DNA of 64,000 nucleotides from Dehalococcoidia bacterium (GCA_026003895.1 BPIC01000001.1:560128-624127); one strand, 5' to 3'; numbered from the stretch's first letter, positions 1 to 46,303 are shown. Notes: a model not told the origin generated them from the letters alone. Numbers and translations are program-made.

Positions 1-87
1 AACGCCGTTTCCTTCCCCGTTGTTGGCGGTCAGGTCCAGATCACGGTGGGCGAGAGCCCGCTCTACATCGACGTCCTGCGCAAGTAG
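1..87 (+). CDS. 3' end of an unidentified CDS entering from upstream
   Basis: Frame +1 is open from the window edge to TAG 85-87 (...ITVGESPLYIDVLRK*). It is too short to assign. A perfect 10-bp inverted repeat (116-125 / 136-145) follows. Confidence 0.3.
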   Translation, partial: NAVSFPVVGGQVQITVGESPLYIDVLRK

Positions 88-319
88 GGCGCGACGCGCG
101 TTCGGGCGCCTCGGCGACGGCGATCGAGCCCGCTGGATCGCCGTCATCGTCGAAGGTAGAGCTCGCCAGAGCCGCCCGACCATTGCTTAAACCATGGTGC
201 GTGGCTGGCGAAGGGGATGGCAGTCGTCTGCGATCGCTGCGGGCGAACGCGATCTCTCGCGCGAGGTTGCGGCAGCGGGCTACGATTGAAGCGACGACAT
301 ACCCCGAGAAAGGCGCTTC

Positions 320-1255
320 ATGCGACGCGGTCTCCTCTGGATTTTCAGTCTCGTCGCCGTGACTGTCGTGGTGGTTGGGGCGTGCGGGTTCGGCTTTCTC
401 CTCGGCGCGGCGAGTGGAGGGCTGAGCAGTCCCTTCGGCGGCGGCTCGGTCGCCGTCATCGAGGTGACGGGGGTCATCGCCAGCGGCGACGGCAGCGATC
501 CGTTTGGCGCCGGCACGGCGGCGAGCGGAAAGATTGTTCGCTGGCTCACGCAGGCGGCGGATGACCCGCAGGTGCGCGCGATTGTCCTGCGCATCGACAG
601 CCCAGGCGGTGGGGTGACCGCCTCGGATGAGATCTACAACGCGGTCGTCAAAGCGAAAGCGAAGGGCAAAAAGGTCGTCGCGTCCTTTGGATCTACCGCG
701 GCGTCGGGCGGCTACTACATCGCTGCGCCGGCCGATCGCATCGTCGCCAACCCGACCTCGATTACCGGTAGCATCGGCGTCATCAGCGTCATCCCGAACG
801 TGTCGGGGCTGATGGAAAAGCTGGGTGTCGAGAGTTACGTCTTCAAGAGCGGGCCGCATAAGGATAGTTCGACCGGCTTGCGCCCTCTGACCGAGGCCGA
901 TCGCCGCATTTGGCAGTCGATCGTTGACGACAGCTACGAGCGATTCGTCGAGATCGTCGCCAAAGGTCGTGGAATGGACAGCGCCGCGGTCCGCGCCGTT
1001 GCCGACGGACGCATCTTCACCGGCCGGCAGGCGCTCGACGCCAAGCTGGTGGATGAGCTGGGCGACTTGCCGGAGGCGATCCAGGCTGCTGGCAAGCTCG
1101 CTGGCATCACTGGCGAACCAGCGGTCATCACTTACCGTGACCGCGGCTTCTTCTCTTCGCTTGCCTCCTCATGGTTGCGCCCGCCGTGGAGCGCCGCGGT
1201 GAGCGCGCTTGGCCTTGACCTTCGCGAGCCTGTGCACTACCGGCTCGTGTACTGA
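320..1255 (+). CDS. sppA: Signal peptide peptidase SppA (36K type, S49 family)
   Basis: 311-aa ORF with ATG 320 after GAGAAAGG. An N-terminal TM segment is followed by S49 motifs (IDSPGGGV, ASGGYYIAAPAD, ITGSIGV). Confidence 0.85.
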   Translation: MRRGLLWIFSLVAVTVVVVGACGFGFLLGAASGGLSSPFGGGSVAVIEVTGVIASGDGSDPFGAGTAASGKIVRWLTQAADDPQVRAIVLRIDSPGGGVTASDEIYNAVVKAKAKGKKVVASFGSTAASGGYYIAAPADRIVANPTSITGSIGVISVIPNVSGLMEKLGVESYVFKSGPHKDSSTGLRPLTEADRRIWQSIVDDSYERFVEIVAKGRGMDSAAVRAVADGRIFTGRQALDAKLVDELGDLPEAIQAAGKLAGITGEPAVITYRDRGFFSSLASSWLRPPWSAAVSALGLDLREPVHYRLVY

Positions 1256-1298
1256 GGAGGCCGTACAATGGCTGCCAGTACGATCGGAGGCAGCCATC

Positions 1299-2078
1299 AT
1301 GCGACGGATCGCCGTTCCTCCGACGCCGCTCGACGCATTCCCGGAGGAGCGCACCCCGCACGGCACGCTTCGCCGCGCCATCGTTGACGAGCCGGCGGGG
1401 CCAAAGACCCTCATCCTCACCTACCCTGCGGGCACGCGCAGCCGCTTCGCTGACCGCGGCTTCGAATATCACTCCGCGCACGAGGAGATCTTTCTGTTGG
1501 ATGGCGTTATCCAATTCGGGGAGTGGTACGACTGGAAGGCATTTGGCTACATCAACCATCCTCCGTATTGGGTGCACCCTGCCGATCAGAAGACGGACGT
1601 TGGGGCAACCATGCTGGCCAAGATCGACGGGGCCGTTGATTTCGGCTTCGAGCCGATCCCGCCTGACTGGGACGGCCGCGAGTACATCGTGGAAGGCACC
1701 CCGGTGAAATCCCGAGCACGCGGTGTGAGCAACGCCACCTTGAACGACATCCCGTGGGAGCCGGTCTTCCTGCCCGGCGGCCGCGACATGGGGTTCGAAG
1801 CGAAACACCTGAATGACGACCCCGAGAGCGGCTGGGTCACGTGGCTGATGCGTGCTCCGGCCGGCTGGCGCACCGAAGGCGGGCGTATCCGCGAGGGCGG
1901 CGAAGAAATCTTTCTCCTCGAGGGCGATCTGACGATCGAGGGCGTCGGTCGCTTGGAGGGGCGTGGCTACTATTGCGATCCCGAGAAGACAATCACGGGC
2001 AAGTCGACCGAGCGCGGCTGTTTGGCAATCCGCTGGACGCAAGGCGGTGACTATTTGCTGCCGCCGATCCGGTTTTGA
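1299..2078 (+). CDS. Cupin-fold protein (bicupin-like), function unknown
   Basis: ATG 1299 is preceded by GGAGG (1286-1290). The longer ORF start at 1209 would overlap sppA. Two cupin-like strands are present (HSAHEEIFLLDG, GGEEIFLLEGDL). Confidence 0.6.
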   Translation: MRRIAVPPTPLDAFPEERTPHGTLRRAIVDEPAGPKTLILTYPAGTRSRFADRGFEYHSAHEEIFLLDGVIQFGEWYDWKAFGYINHPPYWVHPADQKTDVGATMLAKIDGAVDFGFEPIPPDWDGREYIVEGTPVKSRARGVSNATLNDIPWEPVFLPGGRDMGFEAKHLNDDPESGWVTWLMRAPAGWRTEGGRIREGGEEIFLLEGDLTIEGVGRLEGRGYYCDPEKTITGKSTERGCLAIRWTQGGDYLLPPIRF

Positions 2079-2088
2079 AGGGAAGGCC

Positions 2089-3036
2089 ATGGTCGAGGGA
2101 ATGCTCCTCACCGTCGACGGGCCGCTGATCTCGGTCGCTGACTTCGCGCCACACCGGGCGCTCTTCGAGGGCGTGTTTGGCCTCGCGGACCGTGGCGGTG
2201 GGACGCTCGACGAATGGACGGTGGCGCGGCTCTGGGGTATTGCCGGCTACCGCGCCGAAACGCGGCTGCTGGAGACACCGGGCACGGCGGCTGGGGTGCT
2301 GCTGGTCCGCTTTGAGCCGATGTCGCCGATCGCCATTCGCGAGGGGACCGGCCCGACCGACAGCGGCGCATTGAAAGTGATCGACTTTGCGACTCCCGAC
2401 TTCGCTGCCGCGAGCGAGGCCCTCGCGCGGGCGGGCTTCCCCTTCAGCGCACGGCCCGCCGAGTACGCCGTGCCGGGCGGTGGGCGGTTCACCGAAGGGC
2501 ATCTCAAGGGGCCGGACGGGATTATCTGTGCGGTGCTCGCCTTTCAAGACGATCCCCTCGAGCGCTTCGTCCGCGTCGTCGATCGCCGATTTAGCGAAAT
2601 CGTGGGCGTCTCGGCGCCAGTCGAGGATCTGGCGGCAGTGCGCCGCTTCTACGACGCGCTCGGGGTAGCCGTGGTGTATGAGTATGCGATCGAAGACGCC
2701 AGCTTTGGCGCGATGATTGGCAAGGCAGAGCCGAGCGTCGTTCGAGGCATCAACTACGGCCTCTCTGAGCGGGATGTCATGATCGGCATCATCCATTATG
2801 GCCTGCCAGCGGGCGCAGCCGCGTCGCTCGCCGCGCGAGCGGTGCTGCCGAACCGTGGCCTCGCTGCGATCCGCTGCAGCGTCCAATCGGTGGAGGCGGC
2901 GGCCGTCGCCTGCGCGGCGGGGGGCGGGGAGGTTCTCGCGCCACCCGCGGAGGTGGAGGCGCCGCCGTGGGGCCGCGTCCGGTCGCTCACGGTTCGCGGT
3001 CCGCACGGGATCGTTCACCATTTCGTCGAACGCTGA
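2089..3036 (+). CDS. VOC (glyoxalase/dioxygenase-like) family protein, two-domain
   Basis: ATG 2089 lies 11 nt after the previous stop. The ORF is 315 aa with two similar halves of VOC-like composition. This is a weak family call. Confidence 0.5.
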   Translation: MVEGMLLTVDGPLISVADFAPHRALFEGVFGLADRGGGTLDEWTVARLWGIAGYRAETRLLETPGTAAGVLLVRFEPMSPIAIREGTGPTDSGALKVIDFATPDFAAASEALARAGFPFSARPAEYAVPGGGRFTEGHLKGPDGIICAVLAFQDDPLERFVRVVDRRFSEIVGVSAPVEDLAAVRRFYDALGVAVVYEYAIEDASFGAMIGKAEPSVVRGINYGLSERDVMIGIIHYGLPAGAAASLAARAVLPNRGLAAIRCSVQSVEAAAVACAAGGGEVLAPPAEVEAPPWGRVRSLTVRGPHGIVHHFVER

Positions 3037-3137
3037 CCGATCTCTCAAGCCGACGAGCAGCGCTGCCGAAACGATCGTCAGAACTCGTCTAACGAGCCGC
3101 GAGCCGCGAACACTGAGCCGCTCGCGCAGAGGCGTTC

Positions 3138-4994
3138 GTGTCGCTGCTCTATCGGCAACCTGTTGCCCGGGCAATCGCGCTTGTGGCCGGGTTGTACTTG
3201 GTCTACTACCTCTGGTGGCGCGCAACGGCGACGTTGAACCACGAGGTGATCGTCTTTTCGTTGGCCCTCCTGCTCGCTGAGATCCAAGGCGTCCTCAACT
3301 TCGGTCTGTTTGCCTTCATGGTGTGGGATGTTGACCGTCGTCCGCCGTTCCGGTTGCGGCCGGGGCTGACGGTCGATGTTTTCGTTCCGACCTACAACGA
3401 AAGTGTGGAGATCCTCGAGGCGACGCTGACGGGCTGCAATGCCATCACCTATCCGCACACGACGTATCTGCTGGACGATGGTCGCCGGCCGGAGGTAGCG
3501 CGTCTGGCGGCGGAGTTGGGGGTGGAGTATCTGACGCGGCCGGACAATCGGCATGCGAAAGCGGGGAACCTGAACGCGGCGCTTGCTCGGACGAGCGGGG
3601 AGTTCATTGTGGTGTTGGATGCGGACACGGTGCCGCAGCCGGACCTGTTGGAGAAGACGCTCGGCTATTTTGTCGACCCGAAGGTGGCGCTCGTTCAACT
3701 TCCGCAGGAGTTCTTCAATCAGGACTCGATCCAGCATGCCACCCGCGACGGAGATTGGCACGAGCAAGCGCTGTTTTATCGGCTGATTCAGCCGGGGAAG
3801 AACCGGTGGAACGCGGCGTTCTGGTGTGGGAGTCCGTCGGTGGTGCGGCGGGCGGCGCTGGAGGACGTAGGGGGCGTGGCCACCGACACGATCACCGAAG
3901 ATATTCACACCTCGTTGCGTCTGCATGCCCGCGGCTGGAGGACGGTCTACCATCTTGGCGATCTCGCCTTTGGCATTGCGCCGCAAACCTACGAGGCCTT
4001 TGCGGTGCAGCGGCTACGCTGGGCGCAGGGCACGATGCAGTTGTTGCGGAGCCGCGAGAACCCGTTGCTTGTTCGGGGTCTCACGCTCGCTCAGCGGCTG
4101 AACTACTTTGCCTCGATGTGGACTTATTTCGATTCCTACCAGAAGCTGATCTATTTGATCGCTCCGGCAATCGTCTTGTGTACAGGGTTGCTGCCGCTCG
4201 ATGTCGAGCCGTTCGATTTCCTGGTGCATTGGATCCCCTATTTTGCCCTTGGGACACTCGCCAACATCGCGCTGGGTCGCGGCCAATTTCGCTATCTGTT
4301 GGTCGAGGAGTACAACGTCCTCAAGATGTTTGTCTTCGTTTGGGCGTCGACCGTGTTGTTTTGGCCGCGAAAACTGAGCTTTAAGGTGACGCCCAAGCAA
4401 GCTGATTCCTCGGTAAAGCAGGTCGATCGGCGCCTGCTTCGTCCGCATTTCGTCACCGCGGCTGTTCTCGTCGCCAGCACGGTCGTTGGGGTGCTGAACC
4501 TCGCCTGGGGTCTGAGCACACAGTACAGCAGGCCCGACGTCTCCGTAGTGGCGCTGGTGTGGGCGTTGGCGAATACCGGGCTGATTGTGCTTGGCGTGCG
4601 CGAGGTGCTGCGGCGCCTCCACGCTCGCGCGGCCTACCGCTTTCCGGCGCGCCTGCCGGCGGCGCTGACCGATCGAGCCGGGAGGCTGGTACCGGGCACG
4701 TCCATCGACTTGTCCGCGAGCGGCGTGGGAATCGTGTTCAACGGGCCGGTGGATCTCCCCAAGCAGGTGACGGCGGTGATCGAACTGCCCGGCGTGCTGA
4801 TCGGTGCCCGTGGTGAGGTCCGCTACCTTGCTCGCCAGGCAGACGGGACCGTGAAAGCCGGCATCCGCTTCGCTGCCTTCGACCCCGCCGACCGCGAACG
4901 ACTGATTAGGTACTTGTTCGTGACTCTACCACGTCGCCGCACACTCGCGCCGAACGCACTTCCTGCGCCTGATCGGGCGAGTCTCGCTGCCTAG
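3138..4994 (+). CDS. Processive GT2 beta-glycan synthase with C-terminal PilZ domain (BcsA-like), copy 1
   Basis: GTG 3138 has GAGG 5 nt upstream. The 618-aa protein has TM segments flanking a GT2 core with LLDDG, VLDADT, TED and QRLRWAQG (QxxRW). The C-terminal PilZ carries RLHAR (RxxxR) and DLSASG (DxSxxG). Confidence 0.85.
   Translation: MSLLYRQPVARAIALVAGLYLVYYLWWRATATLNHEVIVFSLALLLAEIQGVLNFGLFAFMVWDVDRRPPFRLRPGLTVDVFVPTYNESVEILEATLTGCNAITYPHTTYLLDDGRRPEVARLAAELGVEYLTRPDNRHAKAGNLNAALARTSGEFIVVLDADTVPQPDLLEKTLGYFVDPKVALVQLPQEFFNQDSIQHATRDGDWHEQALFYRLIQPGKNRWNAAFWCGSPSVVRRAALEDVGGVATDTITEDIHTSLRLHARGWRTVYHLGDLAFGIAPQTYEAFAVQRLRWAQGTMQLLRSRENPLLVRGLTLAQRLNYFASMWTYFDSYQKLIYLIAPAIVLCTGLLPLDVEPFDFLVHWIPYFALGTLANIALGRGQFRYLLVEEYNVLKMFVFVWASTVLFWPRKLSFKVTPKQADSSVKQVDRRLLRPHFVTAAVLVASTVVGVLNLAWGLSTQYSRPDVSVVALVWALANTGLIVLGVREVLRRLHARAAYRFPARLPAALTDRAGRLVPGTSIDLSASGVGIVFNGPVDLPKQVTAVIELPGVLIGARGEVRYLARQADGTVKAGIRFAAFDPADRERLIRYLFVTLPRRRTLAPNALPAPDRASLAA
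3309..3688. repeat. Near-identical duplicated block A, copy 1 (pairs with 5403-5782)
   Basis: By-eye alignment at offset 2094 shows 380 bp with only 2 adjacent mismatches (3335-3336). Positions 3337-3688 are identical to 5431-5782 (352 bp). Confidence 0.95.
3756..3914. repeat. Identical duplicated block B, copy 1 (pairs with 5859-6017)
   Basis: 159 bp are identical at offset 2103, with a 9-nt insertion in copy 2 between blocks A and B. A third 50-bp identical block is 3994-4043 = 6097-6146. Confidence 0.9.
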
Positions 4995-5228
4995 GGCGGG
5001 TTCGCCGTTCCCCAAATCCGCCGTGCCACAGGTGGCGCCTCTCGCTCGGCTTCTCCCTTGCTCCGAGAGGCGGCAGGTGGCAATCGGGGTGAGTCAGCCG
5101 CTCGATAGGCTACTCCCCAATAGCGCCCCGGTCTGCCTCTCACTACAATCGCTCTGGCGACCGATATCCTTGAATGGGCGCCTTCGCGATTGTCGTCCGA
5201 CGCCAATCCGACTACGGACGTGCGAGGT

Positions 5229-7088
5229 ATGATCCGCTTGCTCTACCGCAACCGTGTGGCGCATGCGGTTGCTCTCGTCGCCGGGGTATTCCTCGTCTAC
5301 TACGTCTGGTGGCGCGCCACCCAGACGCTGAACCCGGATGCGTGGCTCTTCTCGCTGCTGCTTTTTGCCGCTGAGCTCCACGGGATCGTCAGTTTTTACC
5401 TCTTTGCCTTCATGGTGTGGGATGTTGATTGTCGTCCGCCGTTCCGGTTGCGGCCGGGGCTGACGGTCGATGTTTTCGTTCCGACCTACAACGAAAGTGT
5501 GGAGATCCTCGAGGCGACGCTGACGGGCTGCAATGCCATCACCTATCCGCACACGACGTATCTGCTGGACGATGGTCGCCGGCCGGAGGTAGCGCGTCTG
5601 GCGGCGGAGTTGGGGGTGGAGTATCTGACGCGGCCGGACAATCGGCATGCGAAAGCGGGGAACCTGAACGCGGCGCTTGCTCGGACGAGCGGGGAGTTCA
5701 TTGTGGTGTTGGATGCGGACACGGTGCCGCAGCCGGACCTGTTGGAGAAGACGCTCGGCTATTTTGTCGACCCGAAGGTGGCATTCGTTCAACTTCCCCA
5801 AGAGTTTTACAACCAGGATTCTGTCCAGCATGCCGATGACTCCCTCGAGGAAAGCGCGTGGCACGAGCAAGCGCTGTTTTATCGGCTGATTCAGCCGGGG
5901 AAGAACCGGTGGAACGCGGCGTTCTGGTGTGGGAGTCCGTCGGTGGTGCGGCGGGCGGCGCTGGAGGACGTAGGGGGCGTGGCCACCGACACGATCACCG
6001 AAGATATTCACACCTCGGTTCGGCTGCACGCCCGGGGCTGGAAGAGTGTGTATCACAACGAAACACTCGCCTACGGGATTGCCCCCCAGACCTTCCAGGC
6101 CTTTGCGGTGCAGCGGCTACGCTGGGCGCAGGGCACGATGCAGTTGCTGCGTACCCCGGACAATCCGCTTGTCAAGCCAGGCCTGACGCTGGCCCAGCGG
6201 CTGAATTACCTCGCGTCGATGATGACCTACTTCGATTCCTACCAGAAGCTGATCTACCTGCTTGCGCCGTCGATCGTGTTGTTCACTGGTATCCTGCCGC
6301 TCAACGTGCCGGGCGTTGAGTTTCTGATCAACTGGATTCCTTACTTTGTCCTGACGGCGCTGGCGAACATCGCATTGGGGCGGGGCCAATTCCGCTTTCT
6401 GCTCGTCGAGCAGTACAACTTGCTCAAGCTGTTCGTCTTCCTCTGGGCGACGACCATCTTATTCTGGCCGCGCAAGATCAGCTTTCAGGTTACGCCGAAA
6501 AACGTTGATACATCGGTGACCGAAACCGAGCGACTCCTGCTTCGACCGCAAGTTGCGGTGCTGGCGGTTATCGGGGTGAGCGTCGTGCTTGGCATCGTCA
6601 ACCTGATGTGGGGGGTAACGGCGTCGTACAGCCGCCCAGACATCGTGATCGCGACGGTCGTCTGGGCGCTGGCAAACGCGGGCCTGCTCGTGCTTGGGGT
6701 GCGGGCCGTGCTGCGTCGCCTGCACGCGCGGACGACGTACCGCTTTCCGGTGCGGGTGCCGATTGGGCTGACCGACGTCGCAGGAAGGATCGTTCCCGGC
6801 ACGGCGATCGATCTGTCGCCAGCAGGGGCGGGGGTACGGCTGGACGAACCGGCGCAGCTTGGCAAATCGGTCACCGCTATCGTCGAGCTGCCCTCTGGCC
6901 TAATCGGCGCCCGCGGCGAGGTGCGCTACGTCGTCCGCCAGCCCGACGGAAGCCTTAAGGCCGGCGTCCGCTTTATCGCGCTCGACCCCGCCGACCGCGA
7001 ACGGCTGGTCTTCTTCCTCTTTGTCGCGGTGCCGCGCTCGTTGAGCATCCAGCCGCCGGCGCTTGAGCCGGCGGCCCGCGTCGCCTGA
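5229..7088 (+). CDS. Processive GT2 beta-glycan synthase with C-terminal PilZ domain (BcsA-like), copy 2
   Basis: It is a paralog of 3138-4994 with the same GT2 motifs and a PilZ domain (RLHAR, DLSPAG). ATG 5229 aligns with the copy-1 start (MIRLLYRNRVAHA vs MSLLYRQPVARA). TTG 5190 is an alternative upstream start. Confidence 0.85.
   Translation: MIRLLYRNRVAHAVALVAGVFLVYYVWWRATQTLNPDAWLFSLLLFAAELHGIVSFYLFAFMVWDVDCRPPFRLRPGLTVDVFVPTYNESVEILEATLTGCNAITYPHTTYLLDDGRRPEVARLAAELGVEYLTRPDNRHAKAGNLNAALARTSGEFIVVLDADTVPQPDLLEKTLGYFVDPKVAFVQLPQEFYNQDSVQHADDSLEESAWHEQALFYRLIQPGKNRWNAAFWCGSPSVVRRAALEDVGGVATDTITEDIHTSVRLHARGWKSVYHNETLAYGIAPQTFQAFAVQRLRWAQGTMQLLRTPDNPLVKPGLTLAQRLNYLASMMTYFDSYQKLIYLLAPSIVLFTGILPLNVPGVEFLINWIPYFVLTALANIALGRGQFRFLLVEQYNLLKLFVFLWATTILFWPRKISFQVTPKNVDTSVTETERLLLRPQVAVLAVIGVSVVLGIVNLMWGVTASYSRPDIVIATVVWALANAGLLVLGVRAVLRRLHARTTYRFPVRVPIGLTDVAGRIVPGTAIDLSPAGAGVRLDEPAQLGKSVTAIVELPSGLIGARGEVRYVVRQPDGSLKAGVRFIALDPADRERLVFFLFVAVPRSLSIQPPALEPAARVA
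5403..5782. repeat. Near-identical duplicated block A, copy 2
   Basis: See 3309-3688. Confidence 0.95.
5859..6017. repeat. Identical duplicated block B, copy 2
   Basis: See 3756-3914. Confidence 0.9.
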
Positions 7089-7089
7089 C

Positions 7090-7125
7090 GCTGCTGCGCT
7101 GCGGGGCCACCACCGGCGCAGCAGC
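7090..7125. terminator. Hairpin between convergent genes (possible bidirectional terminator)
   Basis: A 10-bp perfect stem GCTGCTGCGC / GCGCAGCAGC (7090-7099 / 7116-7125) lies between the copy-2 synthase stop (7088) and the valS stop (7169). There is no clear U tract. A second short hairpin lies at 7149-7166. Confidence 0.3.
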
Positions 7126-7168
7126 TGATCGCCCGGGATCCACACGAAGACGCCTCCTGAGGCGTCGG

Positions 7169-9858
7169 TCAGCTGAACGCTGCCAACCGTTCGGCGATCT
7201 TGGCGAGGCGCGCTTCGGCAGCAGCGAGTTTGTCGCGCTCCTTGGCGACGACCGCCTCGGGCGCTTTCGCGAGGAACTGCTCGTTGGCGAGGCGCGCCCG
7301 TACCCGAGCGACCTCGTCCTCGGCTTTCGCGCGCCTCCTCGCGGAGGCGTGCTTTCTCCTCTTCGACGTCGACGAGCCCTTCGCGCGGCAAGTAGACCTC
7401 GGCGCCCCCCGTCGAGGATGAGCGCGATCGCATCCCGGGGGTGGCTCGGACAGAGTCTCAACGATAGTGAGGGGGTCGATGCGGGCCAACTGGCGGATCG
7501 CCGATGCCTTGGCGGCATACATGCCGGCGCGGTCGCCAGCGACGAAGGTCGCGGGAATCCAGCGCTTGGCTTCCACCTTCTCCTCGGTGCGGACGTTGCG
7601 CACCGCACGGATCGCCTCCATCACGGTGGTCCAACTGCGCTCGGCGTCATCGTCGAGCAGGCTCTTCGTCGGCTTGGGGATAGGGAGCGATGATTAGCGC
7701 CTCGCTGCAGCGAAACTCTCCGGTTGGGCGGTCGGCGGCTGCAAGGTAGCGCCAGATTTCCTCGGTGACGAAGGGAATGAACGGATGAAGCAAGCGCAGC
7801 ATGGTGTCGAGCACACTGCCAAGCCACTTCGGGCGCGGCAGTCGGCGTGCCGCGCTCCTCTCGCGTCGCGCGCCTCAACCTTGGCCACTTCGAGATAACC
7901 AAATCGCAGAACTCTTCCCAAAAGAAGGTCTCGGCGATGCGGCCTGCTTCGCCGAGGTTGAAATCCCCGAGGAGCCGGTTCACATCGGCGACTACACCGC
8001 TGCGTCCGGCTGAGGAATCCAACGATCAGCGAGCTTGAGCGGCAGGTCTTGGCGGTCTTCGCCGTCCTGCAGCGAGGATGACAAAAGGCGGGCGGCGTTC
8101 CACACCTTATTGACGAAGTTGCGCCCAGCCTCGAGGCGTGTCGTGGTGAGGCGCATGTCGTTCCCCGGGCTGGATCCCGTCGCGAGCGCAAAGCGCAACG
8201 CGTCGGTCCCGTAGGTCTCGATCAGATCAAGCGGGTTGACCCACATTGCCCAGGGATTTGGACATCTTGCGGCCGAACTCGTCGCGAACGAGGCCGTGGA
8301 GGTAGACATGGCGGAAGGGGATCTGACCGGTGTTCTCGATCCCCATCATCACCATGCGAATCACCCAGAAGAACAGGATGTCGTATCCGGTCTCCATCAC
8401 CGAGGTGGGGTAAAAGGTCCGGAAATCCTCGGTGTGTTCTGGCCAGCCGAGAGTCGAATGCGGCCAGAGCGCCGATGAGAACCACGTGTCGAGCGAATCC
8501 GGGTCTTGCTCGATCTCGGGCGAGCCGCACTCTGGGCATACCTCTGGGTCGTCGAGCGGGACGATCGTCGCGCTACAGGCGCGGCAATACCAGACGGGGA
8601 TGCGGAACCCCCACCAGATCTGGCGGGAGATACACCAGTCGCGGATGTTCTCAAGCCAGCGCAGGTAATCCTTGGTGAACCGCTCTGGGACGATCGCAAT
8701 CTCGCCGTTGCGCACTGCCGCGATAGCGGGGGCGGCGAGCGGCTTCATCGACATCCACCACTGGAGCGAAACGATCGGCTCGATCGGCTCGCCGGTTCGC
8801 TCGGAGTGGCCGACAGCATGGCGATAGTCCTCGATCTTCACGAGGAAGCCCTGAGCGGCGAGATCCTCGACGAGCCGGGCACGACATTCGTAGCGGTCGA
8901 GCCCTGCATACGGTCCTGCCTGCTCGTTCATCGTGGCATCGAGATTCATCACGAGGATTCGCGGCAGGTTGTGACGCTGGCCGATCTCAAAGTCAGTCGC
9001 ATCATGGGCTGGGGTCACTTTCACCGCGCCGGTGCCGAACGTCGGGTCCACCGCCTCATCGGCGACTATGGGAATGCGCCGTCCGAGGATCGGCAGGATG
9101 GCGTGTTTGCCGACAAGATGGCGGTAGCGATCGTCCTCCGGATGAACGGCGACGCCGGTGTCGCCAAGGATCGTCTCGGGTCGGGTGGTGGCCACGGTGA
9201 TGAACGTGTCTGGCTCGCCTTCGATCGGGTATCGCACGTACCAGAGATGGCCGTCCACCTCCTGAAAGTCCACTTCCAGATCGGAGAGGGCCGTTTGCGC
9301 TTTGGGGCTCCAGTTGATGATGCGCTCGCCGCGGTAGATCAGCCCTTTGTGGTACAGGTTGTAGAAGGTGTGACGCACCGCCCGTGTCGAGATGGGATCG
9401 AGGGTGAAGCGCTCGCGCGTCCAGTCGCAGGAAGCGCCGAGTTTGCGGTGCTGGAGGGAGATGATCTTGCCGTACTTCTCCATCCACTCCCACATCTTTT
9501 CGAGGAACTTTTCGCGGCCAAGCGCCTGCCGGGTGAGGCCTTCCTTGGCCAGCTCGCGTTCCACCACGATCTGAGCGTAGATGGCGGCGTGGTCGGTGCC
9601 GGGGAGCCAGAGGGTGACATCGCCGAGCATGCGGTGCCAGCGGGTGAGCGTGTCCTCGATCGTGGCGGTGAGCGCATGGCCGAGGTGTAGTTCTCCCGTC
9701 ACGTTTGGCGGCGGCATCACCATCGAGAAGGTCGGCCGCGCTGGGTCGATCGTCGGCGTGAACCAGCCACCGTCCATCCAGAACTGGTAAATCCGGTCTT
9801 CGACGGTGCGCGGATCGTAGGCTTTGTCCATCTGCAAGGCGCGCTCCGTCCCGGTCAT
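7169..9858 (-). pseudogene. valS: Valyl-tRNA synthetase, reading frame broken about 11 times in the 3' third
   Basis: ORF 8227-9858 (543 aa) is an intact ValS N-terminus with HIGH (GELHLGHA) and KMSKS. The rest is recovered only by stepping through frames 0>2>1>0>2>1>0>2>1>0>2>1 (end coordinate mod 3). The recovered pieces are [55 protein letters not shown] and the coiled-coil tail LANEQFLAKAPE...AFS*. Confidence 0.9.
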
Positions 9859-10667: not shown

Positions 10668-11891
10668 TTATTCGAGCACGATCAGCTCGGTTTTTCCACT
10701 GGTCAAAAGCTCGTTGCCGCTCTCGCGGATCAGGAAGGTATCTTCCAGATGAAGTGCGCCAAAGCCAGCTTCCATATACACGATGTCGATGTTCATGGTC
10801 ATGTTGGCGCGGGCGACTTGGTTCGGTGTCCGCGGGTTGTCGGTGTGCTCGAGTCCCACGGAATGCGGTGTGGTGGCGACAAACTCGGGGAACCCTTCGC
10901 GCCGCGCCGTCTCGCGCACGGCCTCGCTGATTTCGGCAAACGGCACGCCCGGGCGCGCCGTTTCGTAGCCGGCCTCGAACCCACGCCGCATGGCATCGAA
11001 CCGTCGCCGCACCTTCGCTTCGGGTGCCCCCCACGACACGGTTCGACCGAAGTCGCCGTGATAGTGTTGCCACGTCCCGAGGGCATCGACCATGAGAAAG
11101 TCGCCAGGCGCCGCTGGGTAGTCCTTGAACTGGTGCTGGAAGGTGCCGGTGTGGTGCGGCGAGCCAGTGAGCAGGTATTTCGCTTCCCCGCCGCGCAGCG
11201 CAATGGCCGATCGATAACGGGCGACGACGTCCTCAATCGTCGGGAGCAGCGGGATCAGGCGCACGGCTTCGAGCGCCGCTTCCTCGTTGACGACGGCCGC
11301 TTTGCGCATCTTCTCAATCTCGGGTTCCGTCTTGATCATGCGAATGCTGCGCAGGACGTCGACGGCATCGAACGGTAGAAACCCGTCGAGCGGAATTCGG
11401 CCGGCCATGCCCGGCTCGTCGAAGCCGATCTTGCCATTCTGGAGGCCGCGGTCGGTCAATGCCTTGGCGACGGCGTCATACGGCGTCGGGCTCGCGGTGG
11501 GGACGAGCGCGTCGCGCAGCTCGCGAATGTAGCGCTCGGATTCGAGGAGCTCCTCGGCGAGGTAGAGGATCGAGTCGCCCCGGTAGACGAGGTAGACATC
11601 GCTGATCCAAGGGTCCATTTCGGCGGAGGAGTTCAACGTCAGAATCGAGCAGATCAGCGCCGGCTCGCCCTGCGCAGGCACGATGACGGTGGCGTAGCCG
11701 GGGAAGTGCCAAAGGGGCGGCGAATCGATGCCCGAGAAATAGTGGACATTGTGCGCGAGCGAACAGACGACCGCGTCGAGCCCGTGGCGGCGGATCTCTT
11801 CGCGCGCCCGGTCGAAATCGGCGAGTGGTGGGATGCGCCGCGGCGTAAAGGTCGTGCTCAAGGCCTCACCCCCAGGTCTCCCCATCGTCAT
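10668..11891 (-). CDS. M24 family Xaa-Pro peptidase / creatinase-like hydrolase
   Basis: It has a creatinase-like N-domain plus a pita-bread fold with metal-ligand context ([32 protein letters not shown]). Start is ATG 11891 or 11885. The longer ORF start at 11960 would overlap the methyltransferase by about 95 nt. Confidence 0.75.
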
Positions 11892-13014
11892 CCGCGAACG
11901 AGGACCGATCCGCCGCCAGTTCACCGCTTGGCGCGTTCCGCGAGGCGGCGAGCTCTGCACGTCGCAGGTGTTGGCGGAGCCGGTCGATCGGTTGCCAGCC
12001 GGTGACGGGATCGTGATAGAGCCAATGCTCCCAGCCGTTTGTCGGACCGCCGGCGATCATACGCCCAAGCTGGTGAATCGATCCTTGCTGGTCGCGCCAG
12101 CGCAGATGGCCCGTTGCCAAGACCGTTGCGGTTTCGGCGGGATGGTCGAAGCGCAGTTCGTCGCCAGGCTGCAAGAGGCCGGCTTCGAGCAGGGCGCCGA
12201 ACGGAATGCGCCGCTCGCGCGGTGGCGGCCAGTCGAGTGCGGAGGCGGGCGCCGGCGTGACGCCGGCGATGCGCTCGCGTGCCAGAGCTGCGTACCGAGC
12301 ATCCTGTTCGATGCCGATCCACCGCCGGCCGAGCTTCTTGGCGACGGCGCCGGTCGTTCCGGTGCCAAAAAAGGGATCGAGGACGACATCACCCGGGTTC
12401 GTCGTGGCAAGCAGGACGCGGTAGAGCAGCGCCTCCGGCTTTTGGGTCGAGTGCGCCTTCCGGCCATCGATTCGCAACCGCTCGCGTCCCGAGCAGATTG
12501 GCAGGCGCCAGTCGCTCCGCATCTGGAGGTCGTCGTTCAGCGCTTTCATCGCCTGATGGTTGAAGGTGTAGGGGGCACCGCGGTCGCGCTGCGCCCAGAT
12601 CAATGTCTCGTGGGCATTAGTGAAGCGGACACCGCGAAAGTTCGGCATGGGATTGGTCTTCACCATCACGATGTCGTTCAGGATCCAAAAACCGAGGTCC
12701 TGCAGGATGCTGCCAACGCGGTAGATGTTGTGATACGCGCCGATTACCCAGATCGTTCCGGTTGGCTTCAGCACGCGTCGGCAGGCGGTGAGCCAGCGGC
12801 GGGTAAACGCGTCGTAGGCAGCGAAGGAGCCGATCTGGTCCCAAGCGTCGTCAACTGCGTCCACGCGCGTGCCGTTTGGCCGGTAGAGGGTTCGCTGCAA
12901 CTGCAGGTTGTACGGCGGATCGGCGAAGACCAGATCGACCGATTCGGCGGGCAGGGTGTCGAGAACCACGGCGCAGTCGCCTTCGAGGACGAGGTCGAGC
13001 GGTAGCGCAGTCAC
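11866..13014 (-). CDS. Beta-class N6-adenine DNA methyltransferase, CcrM/M.HinfI-like, with C-terminal extension
   Basis: GTG 13014, 382 aa. Motif IV (FADPPYN) precedes motif I ([10 protein letters not shown]), which is the beta-class order. Further conserved stretches are [46 protein letters not shown] and [11 protein letters not shown] roughly 110-aa C-terminal domain resembles that of CcrM as I recall it. No endonuclease is adjacent. Confidence 0.85.
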
Positions 13015-13064: not shown

Positions 13065-14180
13065 ATGAAGGTCTTGGTTACCGGCGGCGCAGGCTTCATC
13101 GGCAGCCACACCGTTGATCGGCTGCTGACACACGGCTACGAGGTGCGGGTGCTCGATGCGCTGCTTCCGCCGGTGCATCCGCAGCCGGTTTGGCCGCCTG
13201 ACCTGCCGGCCGACATCGAGCGGCTGCACGGCGATGTGCGCGACCGCGATGCCCTCGCCCGGGCGTTACGGGGGGTGGACGCGGTCATCCACCTCGCGGC
13301 CTATCAGGATTACCTTCCCGATTTCTCGACGTTCTTCCACACCAACGCGGTCGGCACCGCCCTCATCTACGAAATCGCCGTCGCCGAACGGCTGCCGATC
13401 CGGAAGATCGTGGTTGCCAGCTCGCAAGCGGTCTATGGCGAGGGGTGGTATCACTGCGACCGCGACGGCGACCAATACCCGCCGCCGCGGCCGGTGGAGC
13501 AGCTCGAACGGGGTGAGTGGGAGCCGCGCTGCCCTGTCTGCGGCGACACGATGAGCTGGCAGCCGACCGACGAGCGCCGCGTCGACCCGCACAACCAGTA
13601 TGCCCTCTCAAAGTACACCGAGGAACGCATCGCGCTCGTGCTAGGCGCACGCTGGGGGATTCCGTCGGTTGGGCTGCGTTATTCGATTACCCAAGGCGCG
13701 CGCCAGAGCTTTACCAACGCGTACAGCGGCATCTTGCGCTCCTTCAGTGTTCGGCTGCTGACCGGGAAGCGACCGATCGCCTATGAGGATGGCCAGCAAC
13801 TGCGCGACTATGTCTATGTCGGTGACGTGGCGCGGGCGAACGTCCTCGTTCTCGAGGACGACCGCGCGAACGGCCGGGCCTTCAACGTGGGAAGCGGCCG
13901 GCCGACCAGCGTCTTGGACTATGCCGAGCGGATCGCGCGTTATCTCGGGTCCGACCTGACCGCCGAAACGCCGGGGCTCTACCGCGCCGGCGATACTCGT
14001 CATATCGTTTCGGATGTCTCGGCGCTGCGGGCGCTCGGCTGGGAACCGGAAGGCACGCTCGACATGATCATTGCCGAGTATGTCGAGTGGGCGCGGCGTC
14101 AGCCGGCGCTGCGCGACCACTACGGCGAAGCGATGGCGCGGATGATTGCCAGCGGAACGCTTCGCCGCGCCCACGGCTGA
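13065..14180 (+). CDS. NAD-dependent epimerase/dehydratase (extended SDR) with a Cys-rich insert
   Basis: The N-terminus is [15 protein letters not shown], and the YxxxK context is YALSKY. An insert carries C-x-x-C ([10 protein letters not shown]) plus HC. GGAGGG lies upstream of ATG 13065. Confidence 0.8.
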
Positions 14181-17200: not shown

Positions 17201-17654
17201 TGCCCGTTGGGGGCTGGGCCAGCGACGCGCGCACGACCTGCGTGATCGGCAAGAGCTCGATCAGCCCGCCTTTCGAAACGCCGCCGGCGCGGTTGCCGCC
17301 ATCGGAGTTGACGGTCACCCACGTTTTGCCGGGTAGGTAGGGGGTCGGAGGCGGCAAAAAGCCCCAGAGATCGACGTAGACGAAGCGGGCGGCCTCGAGG
17401 TCGAGCGCGAGGAGGATCGCCTGCTCATCCGTAATCGAATGCTCCGGCTCGTTGACGAAGTCATTGACATAATCAATCCGAAAATGGGCGGTCTCGTAGG
17501 TGCGGGTGACCCGCGCGGCTTGCTCGACGGTTCGCCCGGTGACGGTAGTGGGCGAGGGCACCGTCTCGGCAGCCGTTGCCGGCCCGCTGAGACGTAGCGC
17601 AACGAGGACTGTGATCGTCGCGGCGGCTGCTGCAACCCATGGCATGCGTGTCAT
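14202..17654 (-). CDS. Large secreted multidomain protein: HExxH region, VWA domain, Ca-binding TSP3-like repeats, FN3-like C-terminus
   Basis: 1150 aa. The signal peptide is MTRMPWVAAAAATITVLVALRLSGPATAAE. HELFH (HExxH) lies in the N-terminal third. The VWA MIDAS motif is VIDNSGSM. Acidic repeats DHDGDGM...DSDDDGLSNFLE...DSDTDGGGESDG follow. The C-terminal beta module ends ...VTYRYYLEALG. GGAGGAAG precedes the ATG. Confidence 0.8.
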   Translation of the reverse strand: MTRMPWVAAAAATITVLVALRLSGPATAAETVPSPTTVTGRTVEQAARVTRTYETAHFRIDYVNDFVNEPEHSITDEQAILLALDLEAARFVYVDLWGFLPPPTPYLPGKTWVTVNSDGGNRAGGVSKGGLIELLPITQVVRASLAQPPTGTPQHELFHEVQRAYVPPIPGENWVFEGTAALAEDHVHPVFDDDPASSYLHHIEIFLDNPDMQYVDDFGVLQSGLTGHWYGAALFWKYFSERYGTSPTTEPGFRFNAIKAYYEARRYAPVMAAIEAAVFSFGSLVSFEEIFRDFTIANYTKDLTYTAKYAYWDDNTTPYPPAYRRVHVVSPTGAIVSYPSESLGPWSARYYEMVAGPGCLYLQVEATPTNGSDPFFHLISRKDTSVLDVQTLLGVAANRTYYANAGGHVTSVGIAAGSEATPVSYTLTSRCLTPTLSVLAPNAGNVAYGGDPASPDNILIELQVLADGQPVTGLDSSAFTVTIGGKPASIVSSASVQDQYWLVVQAPTQPASTTYSLTVGLNGLSPLTVNNAVRYLPRPTADQILVIDNSGSMLDEDKLGAARNAAQLFIDVAAPDDFLGVVTFSTASRLALPLVPANPVGKLLAVLATAVMTANGNTCIGCGADTAQTELTTHGGTGHFRNIVLLSDGMENVAPYWNDVRGAITPTETVIDTVFLGPADAAAEFLMQRIAKETGGTYTRVFLDSEDITTSSLNSRSAASLDLSLANRLANVYKANREGIERHERFFEKRGLYPRAGATETVTVTMAMRELVIAVNWDRGDLNPTLRRPDGTLVTSSDPDVVEIASSSTNRAYRLTNPAAGAWVLTFNPVGDMEYLVVASGKTGTNLFPIVGLPYEKRIVGADVPLLAALADTQPITGATVRVTVQGPDPRQSITLRLRDDGQHGDGKARDGVYGAVYPLTRLAGSYRFEFEASGVNHAGEPFTLYEERTIFMLGGPDHDGDGMSTFWEIRWGFNPFGNDDGVLDSDDDGLSNFLEFQLGTNPRDSDTDGGGESDGSEVRRRNNPFDESDDGVRPPRWLVPRPGNNHVVVTYELPPGAVGATLYRTPVSGIAAASATASSVVTFSVGPSGTFTDTTARNGVTYRYYLEALGADGARSRPSAALNAKPSSTLGPPLPDSRRYLPIATLRAP

Positions 17655-45641: not shown

Positions 45642-46303
45642 ACGCGCTACCGCGGCGTTGCCCCGGTTGCGGGAGTATATACGGCCCGCGAGGCATCTCG
45701 GCGAGGCGGTGGGGCGCGTCGCTGTCGCTCGGGACGAGACGATTGCTGCCAGCGTTGTCCTCCGCCGTCGACGTGGCAGGACGGCGGCCGCACACTCCGC
45801 GAGGAGGAACGCCGAGAGGGTCAATCTTCCGAGCCCGGTTGCGAGCGAGACCTGTTCGGGGAGCGTGCTGCACCACTTGCGGACGATCGCCGGCGTAGGC
45901 GCTTCCCGTCGGAATGATTGGCGAGCGTGCGCACTGTGCTCTCACCTCGCGGCGATGTGGGGAATCGCGCGTCGTTGGGCGACGCATTGTTCCTCCCGCA
46001 CTGCAGCCTTGCGGCCATCCGCCGGGTCCCCCGGCTGGTGACGCCGCCTCGCTCGCTTTGCCGAAGCAGCCGGCGCCTCGGGCGGTAACCGGACGTTCGC
46101 TGCCCCGCGGCGTCGCGTGTGACGTTCCTGATCGCCGTCGTTGCGCCGAAGCCGCACGTGTCTCGCAGGCATGAGCAGGCCTCCGGCGCCGCACGCGCGC
46201 GTCAAGCCGTCCGTTGGATCAGCGCAACCCCTGCAGGACCCTCTCCGTCTTAACACTCAGTTTCCCGTGGCATGCTCGCAGCGCCACCCTCAGGAGAAGA
46301 ACA

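What the first reader, a model, noticed from the sequence alone, without database searches (positions are those of the whole stretch)
3138..7088. Tandem c-di-GMP-gated GT2 synthase paralogs with a nucleotide-identical catalytic core but diverged membrane and PilZ parts
Two adjacent same-strand genes encode BcsA-like proteins, each a GT2 with D,D,D,QxxRW followed by a PilZ domain with RxxxR and DxSxxG.

The identity between them is mosaic:
- 3309-3688 equals 5403-5782 except for 2 adjacent bases.
- 3756-3914 equals 5859-6017.
- 3994-4043 equals 6097-6146.
- The 5' TM-coding region, the segment between blocks (9-nt indel) and everything downstream of about 4044 differ at many positions, at both the DNA and protein level.

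This pattern suggests recent or ongoing gene conversion that homogenises only the catalytic core. The parts that set membrane channel and regulatory properties stay free to diverge. I see no BcsB-like or other accessory gene and no diguanylate cyclase in the window, so the synthases look stand-alone. Their polymer product is unknown.
Basis: partly seen in the sequence, partly recalled or inferred. Interest (0 to 1): 0.7.

Follow-up and report, generated by a model that had tools for sequence, protein, structure and literature searches.

The report
Tandem glucan synthases sharing a converted core
Two neighbouring genes for cellulose-synthase-like enzymes in an uncultured Chloroflexota bacterium keep their catalytic middle part identical by repeatedly copying it from one gene to the other, while their membrane and regulatory ends evolve apart: a clean but not unprecedented case of partial gene conversion.

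Summary
Window 3309-3688 equals 5403-5782 except for 2 bases, 3756-3914 equals 5859-6017, and 3994-4043 equals 6097-6146. The rest of the two genes is 50-80% identical.

Both genes encode BcsA-like GT2 + PilZ synthases with every catalytic, gating-loop and PilZ motif. The AF2 model superposes on BcsA at TM 0.82.

The tandem pair is conserved and syntenic in three divergent Chloroflexota lineages.
- In each lineage the paralogs are about 96-100% identical in the core (dS 0.01-0.08). Orthologous cores differ by dS about 0.6.
- The core tree groups by genome (100% bootstrap three times). The flank tree groups by paralog type (97%).
- The tract boundaries recur in all three lineages. An island of about 80 nt (aa 260-285) stays A- or B-specific in all three. 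It holds a Glu274-to-Gly change in copy A, at a site that is Glu in 50 of 52 relatives.

Assembly artefact is excluded. Three independent short-read contigs stop exactly k or k-1 bases from the nearest A/B mismatch. Another independent contig crosses copy B's core and differs from the window only at four sites at the tract edge, all carrying copy A alleles, so conversion is ongoing.

No BcsB, Ccs partner or GGDEF/EAL gene lies in the window. The product (cellulose or mixed-linkage glucan) and c-di-GMP dependence remain untested.

Verdict: real, well supported, and a new member of a known kind.

The parts
3138..4994 (+). Copy A: BcsA-like GT2 + PilZ synthase, 618 aa, deposited as GIW05688.1
   Evidence: ORF and Pfam/NCBIfam hits. 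PDB BcsA matches at E about 1e-85. AF2 model pLDDT 91.5, Foldseek TM 0.82 to 9b8v_E and 4p00_A. Accession.
5229..7088 (+). Copy B: BcsA-like GT2 + PilZ synthase, 619 aa, deposited as GIW05689.1 (the ORF opens at TTG 5190)
   Evidence: It is 100% identical to P0003.
3309..3688 (+). Conversion tract 1, copy A side (aa 58-184: start of the GT domain, with the DDG and DAD motifs). Partner is 5403-5782.
   Evidence: 380 nt with 2 mismatches. The 5' boundary falls at aa 57-59 in all three lineages. The Logan contig L166 ends 30 nt after the last mismatch at 3336.
5403..5782 (+). Conversion tract 1, copy B side
   Evidence: Independently assembled without any mismatch in L165.
3689..3755 (+). Unconverted gap in the window lineage (aa 185-206). 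It is a variable-length surface loop of the GT domain. Partner is 5783-5858, which holds the extra 9 nt.
   Evidence: The same stretch is converted (identical) in L001, and it is length-variable in the single-copy outgroups. The model has lower pLDDT here.
3756..3914 (+). Conversion tract 2, copy A side (aa 207-259: FWCGS and TED motifs). Partner is 5859-6017.
   Evidence: 159 nt, 0 mismatches.
5859..6017 (+). Conversion tract 2, copy B side
3915..3993 (+). Island that resists conversion, copy A side (aa 260-285: the beta-hairpin between TED and QxxRW). Copy A has a derived L273-G274-D275.
   Evidence: The island is A- or B-specific in all three lineages. E274 is Glu in 50 of 52 other family members and Gly in the A copies. 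Q283 aligns with RsBcsA E371.
6018..6096 (+). Island, copy B side (ancestral-type N-E-T). The sites 6018, 6020, 6023 and 6029 are polymorphic between strains.
   Evidence: At exactly these four sites L165 carries the copy A alleles. It carries B alleles at all 172 other discriminating sites.
3994..4043 (+). Conversion mini-tract 3, copy A side (aa 286-302: the interface helix with QRLRW). Partner is 6097-6146.
   Evidence: 50 nt identical. The block is identical within each genome but differs between genomes at synonymous sites.
6097..6146 (+). Conversion mini-tract 3, copy B side
4626..4919 (+). PilZ domain of copy A (aa 497-594), with RxxxR = R497-R501 and DxSxxG = D524-G529
   Evidence: Pfam PF07238. 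Alignment to RsBcsA R580/R584. Invariant columns.
6729..7022 (+). PilZ domain of copy B (RTTYR, DLSPAG)
   Evidence: Pfam PF07238. Protein alignment.
4995..5228 (+). A-B intergenic region. It is not conserved between lineages and has no recognised RNA element, promoter or terminator.

Best explanation
**What is shown.** The locus holds two tandem paralogous genes for stand-alone BcsA-type membrane glycan synthases. [quoted passage not shown]

The duplication predates the split of at least three Chloroflexota lineages. Since then, non-reciprocal homologous recombination (interlocus gene conversion) between the two direct repeats, which lie 2.1 kb apart, has repeatedly overwritten one copy's GT-domain core with the other's. 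Each genome therefore has a nearly identical core of about 600-700 nt. The N-terminal TM pair, an 80-nt island inside the GT domain, the C-terminal TM/gating region and the PilZ domain keep separate A and B lineages under purifying selection. Conversion is still going on, because two near-identical strains differ only in where the tract ends.

**What is inferred.**
- The core is the stretch with the highest nucleotide conservation, so it keeps enough identity for RecA-mediated exchange. The more diverged flanks block heteroduplex extension, which makes the process self-reinforcing.
- Selection against converting A/B-specific functional residues, such as Gly274 of copy A, probably sharpens the boundaries and preserves the island.
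- With identical donor- and acceptor-binding motifs, the two enzymes most likely make the same beta-glucan. They would differ in regulation (PilZ, gating loop) or in translocation or partnering (TM parts).
For: **Anatomy**
- Exact blocks and mosaic identity profile.
- Synteny: S49 peptidase, cupin, glyoxalase, A, B, then ValRS in L001, L002, L083 and L084.

**Concerted evolution**
- In the core, nucleotide identity is 96-100% within a genome and about 85% between genomes. In the flanks, A groups with A and B with B.
- Paralog core dS is 0.07, 0.01 and 0.08. Ortholog core dS is 0.61-0.64. Flank dN/dS is 0.1-0.3.
- Bootstrap support is 100/100/100 for the genome clades in the core and 97.5/97 for the A and B clades in the flanks.
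- Run test: 0 of 10,000 permutations reach the observed run.
- The boundaries and the island recur in three lineages.

**Not an assembly artefact**
- The L002 contig ends 77 nt after the last A/B mismatch, and the L084 contig starts 77 nt before the next one.
- The Logan k=31 contig L166 equals window 1-3366 and ends 30 nt after the last mismatch.
- L165 independently assembles the end of A, the intergenic region and B's core. Its only differences from the window are 4 copy A alleles at the tract edge.

**Family and context**
- Family assignment and motifs.
- No BcsB, GGDEF or EAL domain in the window.
Against: - Only three lineages carry the pair: 164 related loci yielded no more. The recurrence of the boundaries and of the island therefore rests on n=3.
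- Nothing here separates a purely mechanical (homology-limited) boundary from a selected one.
- GC3 shows no GC-biased conversion signature.
- Ortholog dS in the core (0.61) is lower than in the neighbouring single-copy genes (0.87-1.33). This is unexplained and could mean extra nucleotide-level constraint on the core.
- Enzyme activity, product, c-di-GMP binding and expression of either copy are untested.
- The window assembly has a cluster of about 8 frameshifts in valS directly 3' of copy B, so local consensus quality there is imperfect.
Confidence: 0.9

Rival explanations
1. Assembly artefact: the identical blocks arise from collapse, chimerism or cross-polishing of two paralogs that really differ.
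For: - The window comes from a MAG.
- A cluster of about 8 frameshifts lies in valS immediately downstream of copy B, so the consensus is locally poor.
Against: - The same pattern appears in three lineages from separate assemblies.
- Short-read contigs break exactly k or k-1 bases from the nearest A/B mismatch, as expected only if the repeat is truly exact: L002 and L084 at 77 nt, L166 at 30 nt.
- L165, from another sample, crosses B's core with unique sequence on both sides and has 0 mismatches inside the blocks.
Confidence: 0.02
2. There is no conversion. The core is identical simply because purifying selection on the catalytic domain is extreme.
For: The core is the most conserved part between orthologues too: dN about 0.05 and 84-86% nucleotide identity.
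Against: - Synonymous sites are homogenised within genomes (dS 0.01-0.08) but diverged between genomes (dS 0.61-0.64).
- The core tree groups by genome with 100% bootstrap.
- The run test on third positions alone is significant.
Confidence: 0.01
3. Independent recent tandem duplications, or partial duplications, occurred in each lineage, rather than one old duplication followed by conversion.
For: Tandem arrangement is what fresh duplications produce.
Against: - The flanks form A and B orthologue clades across genomes (97.5% and 97% bootstrap).
- A/B flank dN is 0.25-0.30, larger than the orthologue dN of 0.135-0.20.
- Synteny and gene order are conserved.
- The A-specific LGD island is shared by all three A copies.
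Confidence: 0.02
4. The tract limits are purely mechanical, with no selection involved. Conversion happens wherever A/B identity is high enough for strand exchange. The island and flanks persist only because their mismatch density blocks heteroduplex extension or triggers mismatch-repair rejection.
For: - The boundaries coincide with drops of A/B identity to 55-75%.
- The island's centre has about 12 mismatches within 25 nt.
- The gap at aa 185-206 is unconverted in the window but converted in L001, so boundaries can move.
- L165 shows the edge shifting by only four sites.
Against: - The island is flanked on both sides by converted sequence in all three lineages.
- It contains a derived substitution in copy A at a site that is Glu in 50 of 52 relatives. 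That looks like a maintained functional difference.
- The flanks are under purifying selection in both paralog lineages.
Confidence: 0.4
5. One copy is a decaying or silent duplicate whose core merely looks intact because the functional copy keeps overwriting it.
For: Conversion can rescue or mask pseudogenes. No expression data exist.
Against: - Both ORFs are intact in all lineages.
- The unconverted flanks of both A and B have dN/dS of 0.11-0.17 between orthologues.
- All PilZ, gating-loop and TM features are kept in both copies.
Confidence: 0.04

Closest known systems
Concerted evolution of bacterial paralogs by interlocus gene conversion. Examples: tufA/tufB and the 26 long-lasting cases surveyed in PMC6053082. 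From my own knowledge, not checked here: partial conversions in H. pylori bab genes and in M. tuberculosis PE/PPE and esx genes.
   Same: - Paralogs are more alike within a genome than orthologues are between genomes, at synonymous sites too.
- The duplication predates speciation.
- Synteny is conserved.
- Conversion recurs independently in each lineage.
   Different: - Here only a sub-genic module, the GT core, is homogenised, and its boundaries are reproducible.
- An internal island is left unconverted.
- The gene family, a glycan synthase, is not among the 26 genes listed in PMC6053082; a text search for 'cellulose' and 'glycosyltransferase' gave 0 hits.
- The time depth shown here is three related lineages at dS about 1, not whole orders.
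BcsA, the catalytic subunit of bacterial cellulose synthase (R. sphaeroides 4HG6/4P00; E. coli 9B8V/9FMV)
   Same: - GT2 fold with D, DxD, TED and QxxRW, plus an FFCGS-like motif.
- Interface helices, an FxVTxK gating loop and a C-terminal PilZ with RxxxR and DxSxxG.
- Foldseek TM 0.82.
   Different: - 618 aa and 6 TM helices; the N-terminal TM helices of BcsA are missing.
- No bcsB, bcsC or bcsZ nearby.
- TIGR03030 scores 455 bits against a cutoff of 699.
- The Glu371 salt-bridge position is an invariant Gln.
- The product is unknown.
RiGT2/Cgs, the stand-alone GT2-PilZ (1,3;1,4)-beta-glucan synthase of Romboutsia ilealis (PMC10374906)
   Same: - Monoderm host and about 600 aa.
- Six TM helices equivalent to TM3-8 of BcsA.
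- No BcsB partner gene.
- D, D, D, QxxRW plus the PilZ motifs.
   Different: - Sequence relationship was not measured here, because the RiGT2 sequence was not on hand.
- RiGT2 is a single gene.
- Its activity was c-di-GMP-independent in vitro.
CcsA of the clostridial ccsZABHI cellulose synthase cluster (PMC7710045)
   Same: GT2 + PilZ synthase in a monoderm lineage without BcsB or BcsC.
   Different: No CcsB (CBM11-like), GH5 CcsZ, MBOAT or DHHW genes were found among the window's ORFs.

Membership tests
BcsA-type processive GT2 beta-glycan synthase | GT2 catalytic domain with D, DxD, TED and Q(Q/R)xRW | tested here: met
   Pfam GT2 families at 1e-23 to 1e-28. D113/D114, D161/D163, T253/D255 and Q291-R292-x-R294-W295 are invariant in 56 homologues. 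They align with the motifs of E. coli and R. sphaeroides BcsA.
BcsA-type processive GT2 beta-glycan synthase | Membrane channel of TM helices with amphipathic interface helices and an FxVTxK gating loop | tested here: met
   The AF2 model (pLDDT 91.5) has 6 TM helices, IF helices at 285-304 and 386-408, and the loop F415-x-V417-T418-x-K420. Foldseek TM 0.82 to 9b8v_E and 4p00_A. It has 6 TM helices rather than 8.
BcsA-type processive GT2 beta-glycan synthase | C-terminal PilZ domain with RxxxR and D/NxSxxG | tested here: met
   PF07238 at 1.7e-12 and 5.9e-13. R497 and R501 align with RsBcsA R580 and R584. The second motif is DLSASG in A and DLSPAG in B. Binding of c-di-GMP itself is not testable here.
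BcsA (UDP-forming cellulose synthase, NCBIfam equivalog TIGR03030 / PRK11498) | Score at or above the curated equivalog cutoff | tested here: not met
   TIGR03030: 455.9 and 455.5 bits against a cutoff of 699.1. NF008558: about 350 bits against 992.
Bcs cellulose secretion system (proteobacterial type) | Adjacent bcsB, which is obligatory for BcsA activity, usually with bcsZ and bcsC | tested here: not met
   No BcsB, GH8 or BcsC-type hits among the 42 ORFs scanned across the 64-kb window, nor in the gene tables of L001 and L002.
Clostridial ccsZABHI cluster | ccsA accompanied by ccsB, a GH5 ccsZ, and MBOAT and DHHW genes | tested here: not met
   None of these domains is present in the window's ORFs. 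The cluster definition is from PMC7710045.
Stand-alone Gram-positive GT2-PilZ glucan synthases (RiGT2/Cgs) | About 600 aa, six TM helices lacking the BcsB-contacting N-terminal helices, and no bcsB neighbour | tested here: met
   The description of RiGT2 is from PMC10374906.
Stand-alone Gram-positive GT2-PilZ glucan synthases (RiGT2/Cgs) | Phylogenetic placement in the Cgs clade, and a (1,3;1,4)-beta-glucan product | not tested
The product needs biochemistry.
Concerted evolution by interlocus gene conversion | Paralogs are closer to each other than to their orthologues in the tract, at synonymous sites too, while the flanks show orthology | tested here: met
Concerted evolution by interlocus gene conversion | Statistically significant conversion tract, beyond what conservation alone would give | tested here: met
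   Sawyer-type permutation test on variable sites and on third positions: 0 of 10,000.
Concerted evolution by interlocus gene conversion | The duplication predates the lineages, with conserved synteny and no independent duplications | tested here: met
Concerted evolution by interlocus gene conversion | Evidence of recent or ongoing events within a population | tested here: met
   L165 against the window: the only 4 differences in 1,690 nt are copy A alleles at the 3' edge of tract 2.

The most novel reading that the evidence does not exclude
The mosaic is maintained by selection, not just by recombination mechanics. On this reading the organism needs two synthase isoforms that share one identical catalytic cassette. 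It keeps a distinct 'chassis' for each: the N-terminal TM pair, the GT-domain hairpin island with Glu274-to-Gly in copy A, the channel and gating region, and PilZ. Possible reasons are that the two isoforms work together as a hetero-oligomer, or that they add different linkages or respond to different c-di-GMP thresholds while building one polymer.
Probability: 0.12. Interest if true: 0.7.

Novelty: new member of a known kind. Interest (0 to 1): 0.4.

Why it matters
- It is an unusually clean natural example of sub-genic, domain-restricted concerted evolution in bacteria. There are three lineage replicates, reproducible tract boundaries, an internal island that resists conversion, and a boundary polymorphism caught between near-identical strains.
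- Such a system could be used to ask whether conversion tracts are limited by homology or by selection.
- It flags an uncharacterised pair of stand-alone BcsA-like synthases in uncultured Chloroflexota whose differences are confined to the regulatory and channel parts.
- It is a practical warning for metagenomics: exact repeats of 400-600 nt inside genes break short-read contigs. Three of the related contigs end inside this gene.

Tried and rejected
- **Regulatory RNA.** I looked for a c-di-GMP riboswitch or any other Rfam family near the pair. The whole window gave 0 hits at gathering thresholds.
- **Transcription signals.** The scan over 2900-7400 found no promoter-like site, and terminator-like sites only inside the coding sequence.
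- **Intergenic conservation.** The A-B intergenic regions of the three lineages are not conserved.
- **GC-biased conversion.** GC3 of the core is not elevated over the flanks.
- **More lineages.** Scans of GTDB representative genomes (80 loci) and of JGI metagenomes (80 loci) found no further tandem pairs. All relatives at 60% identity or less are single-copy within the flanks fetched.
- **Contact test.** I wanted to test whether the island contacts the PilZ or TM parts in the AF2 model, but model coordinates are not exposed. Only a homology mapping onto RsBcsA E371 and R580 was possible. That position turned out to be an invariant Gln in both copies, so the idea that the island co-evolves with PilZ stays speculative.
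- **Look-up of copy A.** The first exact look-up failed. In the protein collection it is clustered under an unrelated 47-aa representative.

Full report
**1. The observation**

- 3309-3688 matches 5403-5782 over 380 nt with 2 mismatches, at 3335 and 3336.
- 3756-3914 matches 5859-6017 over 159 nt with none.
- 3994-4043 matches 6097-6146 over 50 nt with none.

A codon-aware sliding window gives 100% identity inside the blocks and 47-82% outside, 0.77 overall. There is a 9-nt indel between blocks 1 and 2. The repeat finder reports the same families at spacings of 2094 and 2103 nt.

I ran a run test restricted to sites that vary among the six gene copies, so that plain conservation cannot mimic a tract. 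The longest run of matching variable sites was 74 in the window and 82 in L001. The maxima in 10,000 permutations were 21 and 19. The test also holds on third codon positions alone.

**2. What the genes are**

Gene A is 3138-4994 (618 aa). Gene B is 5229-7088 (619 aa), with the ORF opening at 5190. They are deposited as the adjacent records GIW05688.1 and GIW05689.1, 'MAG: UDP-glucose-beta-D-glucan glucosyltransferase [Dehalococcoidia bacterium]', on a contig of 1,021,795 bp.

Both have GT2 and PilZ Pfam domains. Both match NCBIfam CelA (TIGR03030) at about 455 bits, below the equivalog cutoff of 699. The best solved relatives are E. coli and R. sphaeroides BcsA, at E about 1e-85 and 1e-82.

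An AlphaFold2 model built on a 56-sequence alignment is confident, with pLDDT 91.5 and pTM 0.89. Its layout is as follows.
- Two N-terminal TM helices (7-31, 35-61).
- The GT domain (79-304), ending in the interface helix that carries Q291-R-L-R-W295.
- Two TM helices, a second interface helix, and the gating loop with F415-K-V-T-P-K420.
- Two more TM helices, a PilZ beta-barrel (507-581) and a C-terminal helix.

Foldseek places the model on BcsA at TM 0.82. By alignment to R. sphaeroides BcsA, the PilZ RxxxR is R497-R501, reading RAAYR in A and RTTYR in B. The autoinhibitory Glu371 position is Gln283, which is invariant in this family.

**3. Context**

Pfam scans covered 42 ORFs in total: the two synthases plus 40 others chosen by codon-position GC. 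They found no BcsB, GH8, BcsC, CcsB/Z/H/I-type, GGDEF or EAL domain. The single GGDEF_2 hit is the non-catalytic domain of a PucR-type regulator at 40646-42262. There is no Rfam element, promoter or terminator of note around the pair. The enzymes therefore look stand-alone within this window.

The literature shows that such monoderm GT2-PilZ synthases vary in what they make.
- CcsA, in a ccsZABHI cluster, is proposed to make cellulose (PMC7710045).
- RiGT2, which is stand-alone, makes (1,3;1,4)-beta-glucan. It was c-di-GMP-independent in vitro although it has the PilZ motifs (PMC10374906).

For that reason both the product and the c-di-GMP gating remain inferences here.

**4. Concerted evolution in three lineages**

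The nearest homologues are Chloroflexota MAG proteins.
- L001 (GCA_033578755.1) has the same synteny: S49 peptidase, cupin, glyoxalase, A, B and then ValRS.
- L002 (JGI 3300044959) has A plus the first 129 aa of B at its contig end.
- L083 (GCA_025054935.1) is the same strain as L001, in an independent assembly.
- L084 (JGI 3300044939) supplies the other half of the L002-type copy B.

In the core (aa 58-256), nucleotide identity between paralogs of one genome is 96.3% in the window, 99.7% in L001 and 98-100% in L002/L084. Between genomes it is 84-86%. In the flanks, A orthologues are 64-80% identical and B orthologues 72-78%. Both are closer than A is to B, at 56-75%.

| Comparison (Nei-Gojobori) | Value |
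|---|---|
| Core dS, paralogs within a genome | 0.07, 0.01, 0.08 |
| Core dS, orthologues | 0.61-0.64 |
| Flank dS | 0.8 or more, near saturation |
| Flank dN, A against B (aa 257-618) | 0.25-0.30 |
| Flank dN, orthologues (aa 257-618) | 0.135-0.20 |
| Flank dN/dS | 0.1-0.3 |

Neighbour-joining trees are incongruent.
- The core groups by genome, with 100% bootstrap for each of the three pairs.
- The flanks group by paralog type, at 97.5% and 97%.

Among 164 related loci from GTDB genomes and JGI metagenomes, only this clade has the tandem pair.

**5. Tract anatomy**

| Lineage | Identical stretches, in copy A residue numbers |
|---|---|
| Window | 58-184, 207-259, 286-302 |
| L001 | 57-257 with 2 mismatches, 287-304 |
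| L002/L084 | 59-125 up to the contig end; then from the contig start 236-272, 293-301 |

The 5' boundary is therefore the same to within two codons in all three lineages.

The window's gap at aa 185-206 is a length-variable surface loop. It is converted in L001.

In contrast, the island at aa 260-285 is A- or B-specific in all three lineages, although converted sequence flanks it on both sides. In the island tree the A copies group together at 88% bootstrap.
- Copy A has a derived L273-G274-D275.
- Copy B and the single-copy outgroups have (N/D)-E-(T/V).
- Position 274 is Glu in 50 of 52 other family members.

Copy B has its own derived changes at conserved sites: Y20F, H364N and S404T. In all, 28 positions are fixed differently between A and B across the three lineages, and none of them lies in the converted core.

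**6. Assembly artefact excluded, and conversion is ongoing**

- The L002 contig ends exactly 77 nt after its last A/B mismatch. The L084 contig begins exactly 77 nt before the next one. This is the signature of a k=77 de Bruijn assembler meeting a true exact repeat of about 485 nt.
- L166 is a Logan k=31 contig from run DRR290133. It is 100% identical to window 1-3366 and ends 30 nt (k-1) after the last mismatch at 3336.
- L165 is a 1,690-nt contig from a third JGI sample (3300044960). It equals window 4753-6442 without gaps, so it independently assembles the end of A, the intergenic region and B's whole core.

L165 differs from the window at only four sites: 6018, 6020, 6023 and 6029. These lie immediately after the 3' end of tract 2, and all four carry the copy A alleles. 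All 106 later and 66 earlier discriminating sites are B-type. Only 5 shared bases separate the last A-type site from the first B-type site, so an assembler path switch cannot explain this. Orthologous B copies carry the window's alleles at these sites. L165's copy B has therefore been converted a little further, which makes this a tract-boundary polymorphism between near-identical strains.

**7. Mechanism**

Shown:
- The duplication is old.
- Non-reciprocal homogenisation of the GT core is recurrent and continuing.
- Purifying selection acts on both sets of flanks.

Inferred:
- The process is RecA-type recombination between direct repeats 2.1 kb apart.
- It is confined to the stretch where nucleotide identity stays high enough, and it reinforces itself there.
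- Selection against converting A/B-specific residues probably contributes, because the island persists between converted stretches and holds a radical change at a conserved site.
- With only three lineages, I cannot separate selection from a mismatch-density barrier.

I found no GC-biased conversion signal. Core dS between orthologues (0.61) is lower than in the neighbouring single-copy genes (0.87-1.33), and I have no explanation for this.

Functionally, identical donor and acceptor motifs argue for the same chemistry in both enzymes. The differences lie in the TM pair, the channel and gating region, and PilZ. That suggests different regulation, translocation or partnering.

**8. Comparison and novelty**

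Concerted evolution of bacterial paralogs by gene conversion is well known. Examples are tuf and the 26 long-lasting cases in PMC6053082, which include no glycosyltransferase or cellulose synthase. BcsA-like GT2-PilZ synthases without BcsB are also known in monoderms.

This case is a new member of known kinds. What is notable is that the conversion is limited to one domain, that the boundaries are reproducible, that an internal island is protected, and that a boundary polymorphism was caught directly. I score interest at 0.4.

Noticed in passing
window 7170-8240 (minus strand; valS spans 7170-9858): The first 542 aa of ValRS are intact, at 91% identity to L001's ValRS. The last third changes reading frame about 8 times within about 1.07 kb, while each piece keeps 60-100% identity (most 86-100%) to L001. 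One junction sits at a C6 homopolymer at 7405. This looks like uncorrected indel errors in the assembly rather than decay of an essential gene. It lies directly 3' of copy B.
   Followed up: partly
window 7089-7168, compared with L001 13979-17148, L083 1271-4440 and L084 1177-4353: The related genomes carry an ABC transporter pair (an ABC_tran ATPase and a BPD_transp_1 permease) between copy B and valS. The window has only 80 nt there, which points to a deletion, or to an insertion in the relatives. It is next to the frameshift-rich stretch.
   Followed up: no
window 3309-3914 compared with the neighbouring genes 320-3036 and 8239-9858: Between lineages, synonymous divergence of the converted core (dS 0.61-0.64) is clearly lower than that of the neighbouring single-copy genes (0.87-1.33) and of the synthases' own flanks (about 0.8-1.3). 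I have no explanation. It may reflect extra nucleotide-level constraint.
   Followed up: partly
L166 1-6435 (DRR290133_47557), just upstream of the window's first base: Immediately upstream of the window lies a glycosyltransferase cluster: three GT4-type genes plus a further Glycos_transf_1 (GT4-clan) gene, a 505-aa GT2 and an LPG_synthase_TM protein. L001 and L002 have unrelated genes at this position, so a link to the synthase pair is doubtful.
   Followed up: no
window 18273-20831 (+), 47915-50695 (+), 44538-45824 (-), 13065-14180 (+), 14202-17654 (-): Other cell-envelope genes lie in the window: two PMT_2 (GT-C) membrane glycosyltransferases, one of them fused to TPR repeats; a LytR_cpsA_psr protein; an NAD-dependent sugar epimerase; and a 1,150-aa VWA-domain protein.
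   Followed up: no
window 23006-24391 (+) and 35567-36670 (+): MutL and RecA are both encoded in the window. The MutL ORF is only 461 aa, and its C-terminal dimerisation domain matches just positions 1-46 of the 142-position Pfam model. I did not check whether it is truncated. That would be relevant to homeologous recombination.
   Followed up: no
protein collection entry for window 3138-4991 (GIW05688.1): Copy A is filed in a 90% cluster whose representative is an unrelated 47-aa peptide (P0137). As a result, homology searches and the first exact look-up did not return it, although it is in the collection.
   Followed up: yes
window 11866-13014 (-) and 10668-11960 (-): An N6/N4 DNA methylase ORF with a RAMA domain overlaps the M24 peptidase ORF by about 95 nt, so its true stop or start is probably different. 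No restriction partner was looked for.
   Followed up: no
L083 1-155 compared with L001 10619 and 12709: The copy B contig of the second assembly of the L001 strain carries the copy A allele at the single site where L001's A and B differ in that stretch. This is another possible within-population conversion difference.
   Followed up: partly
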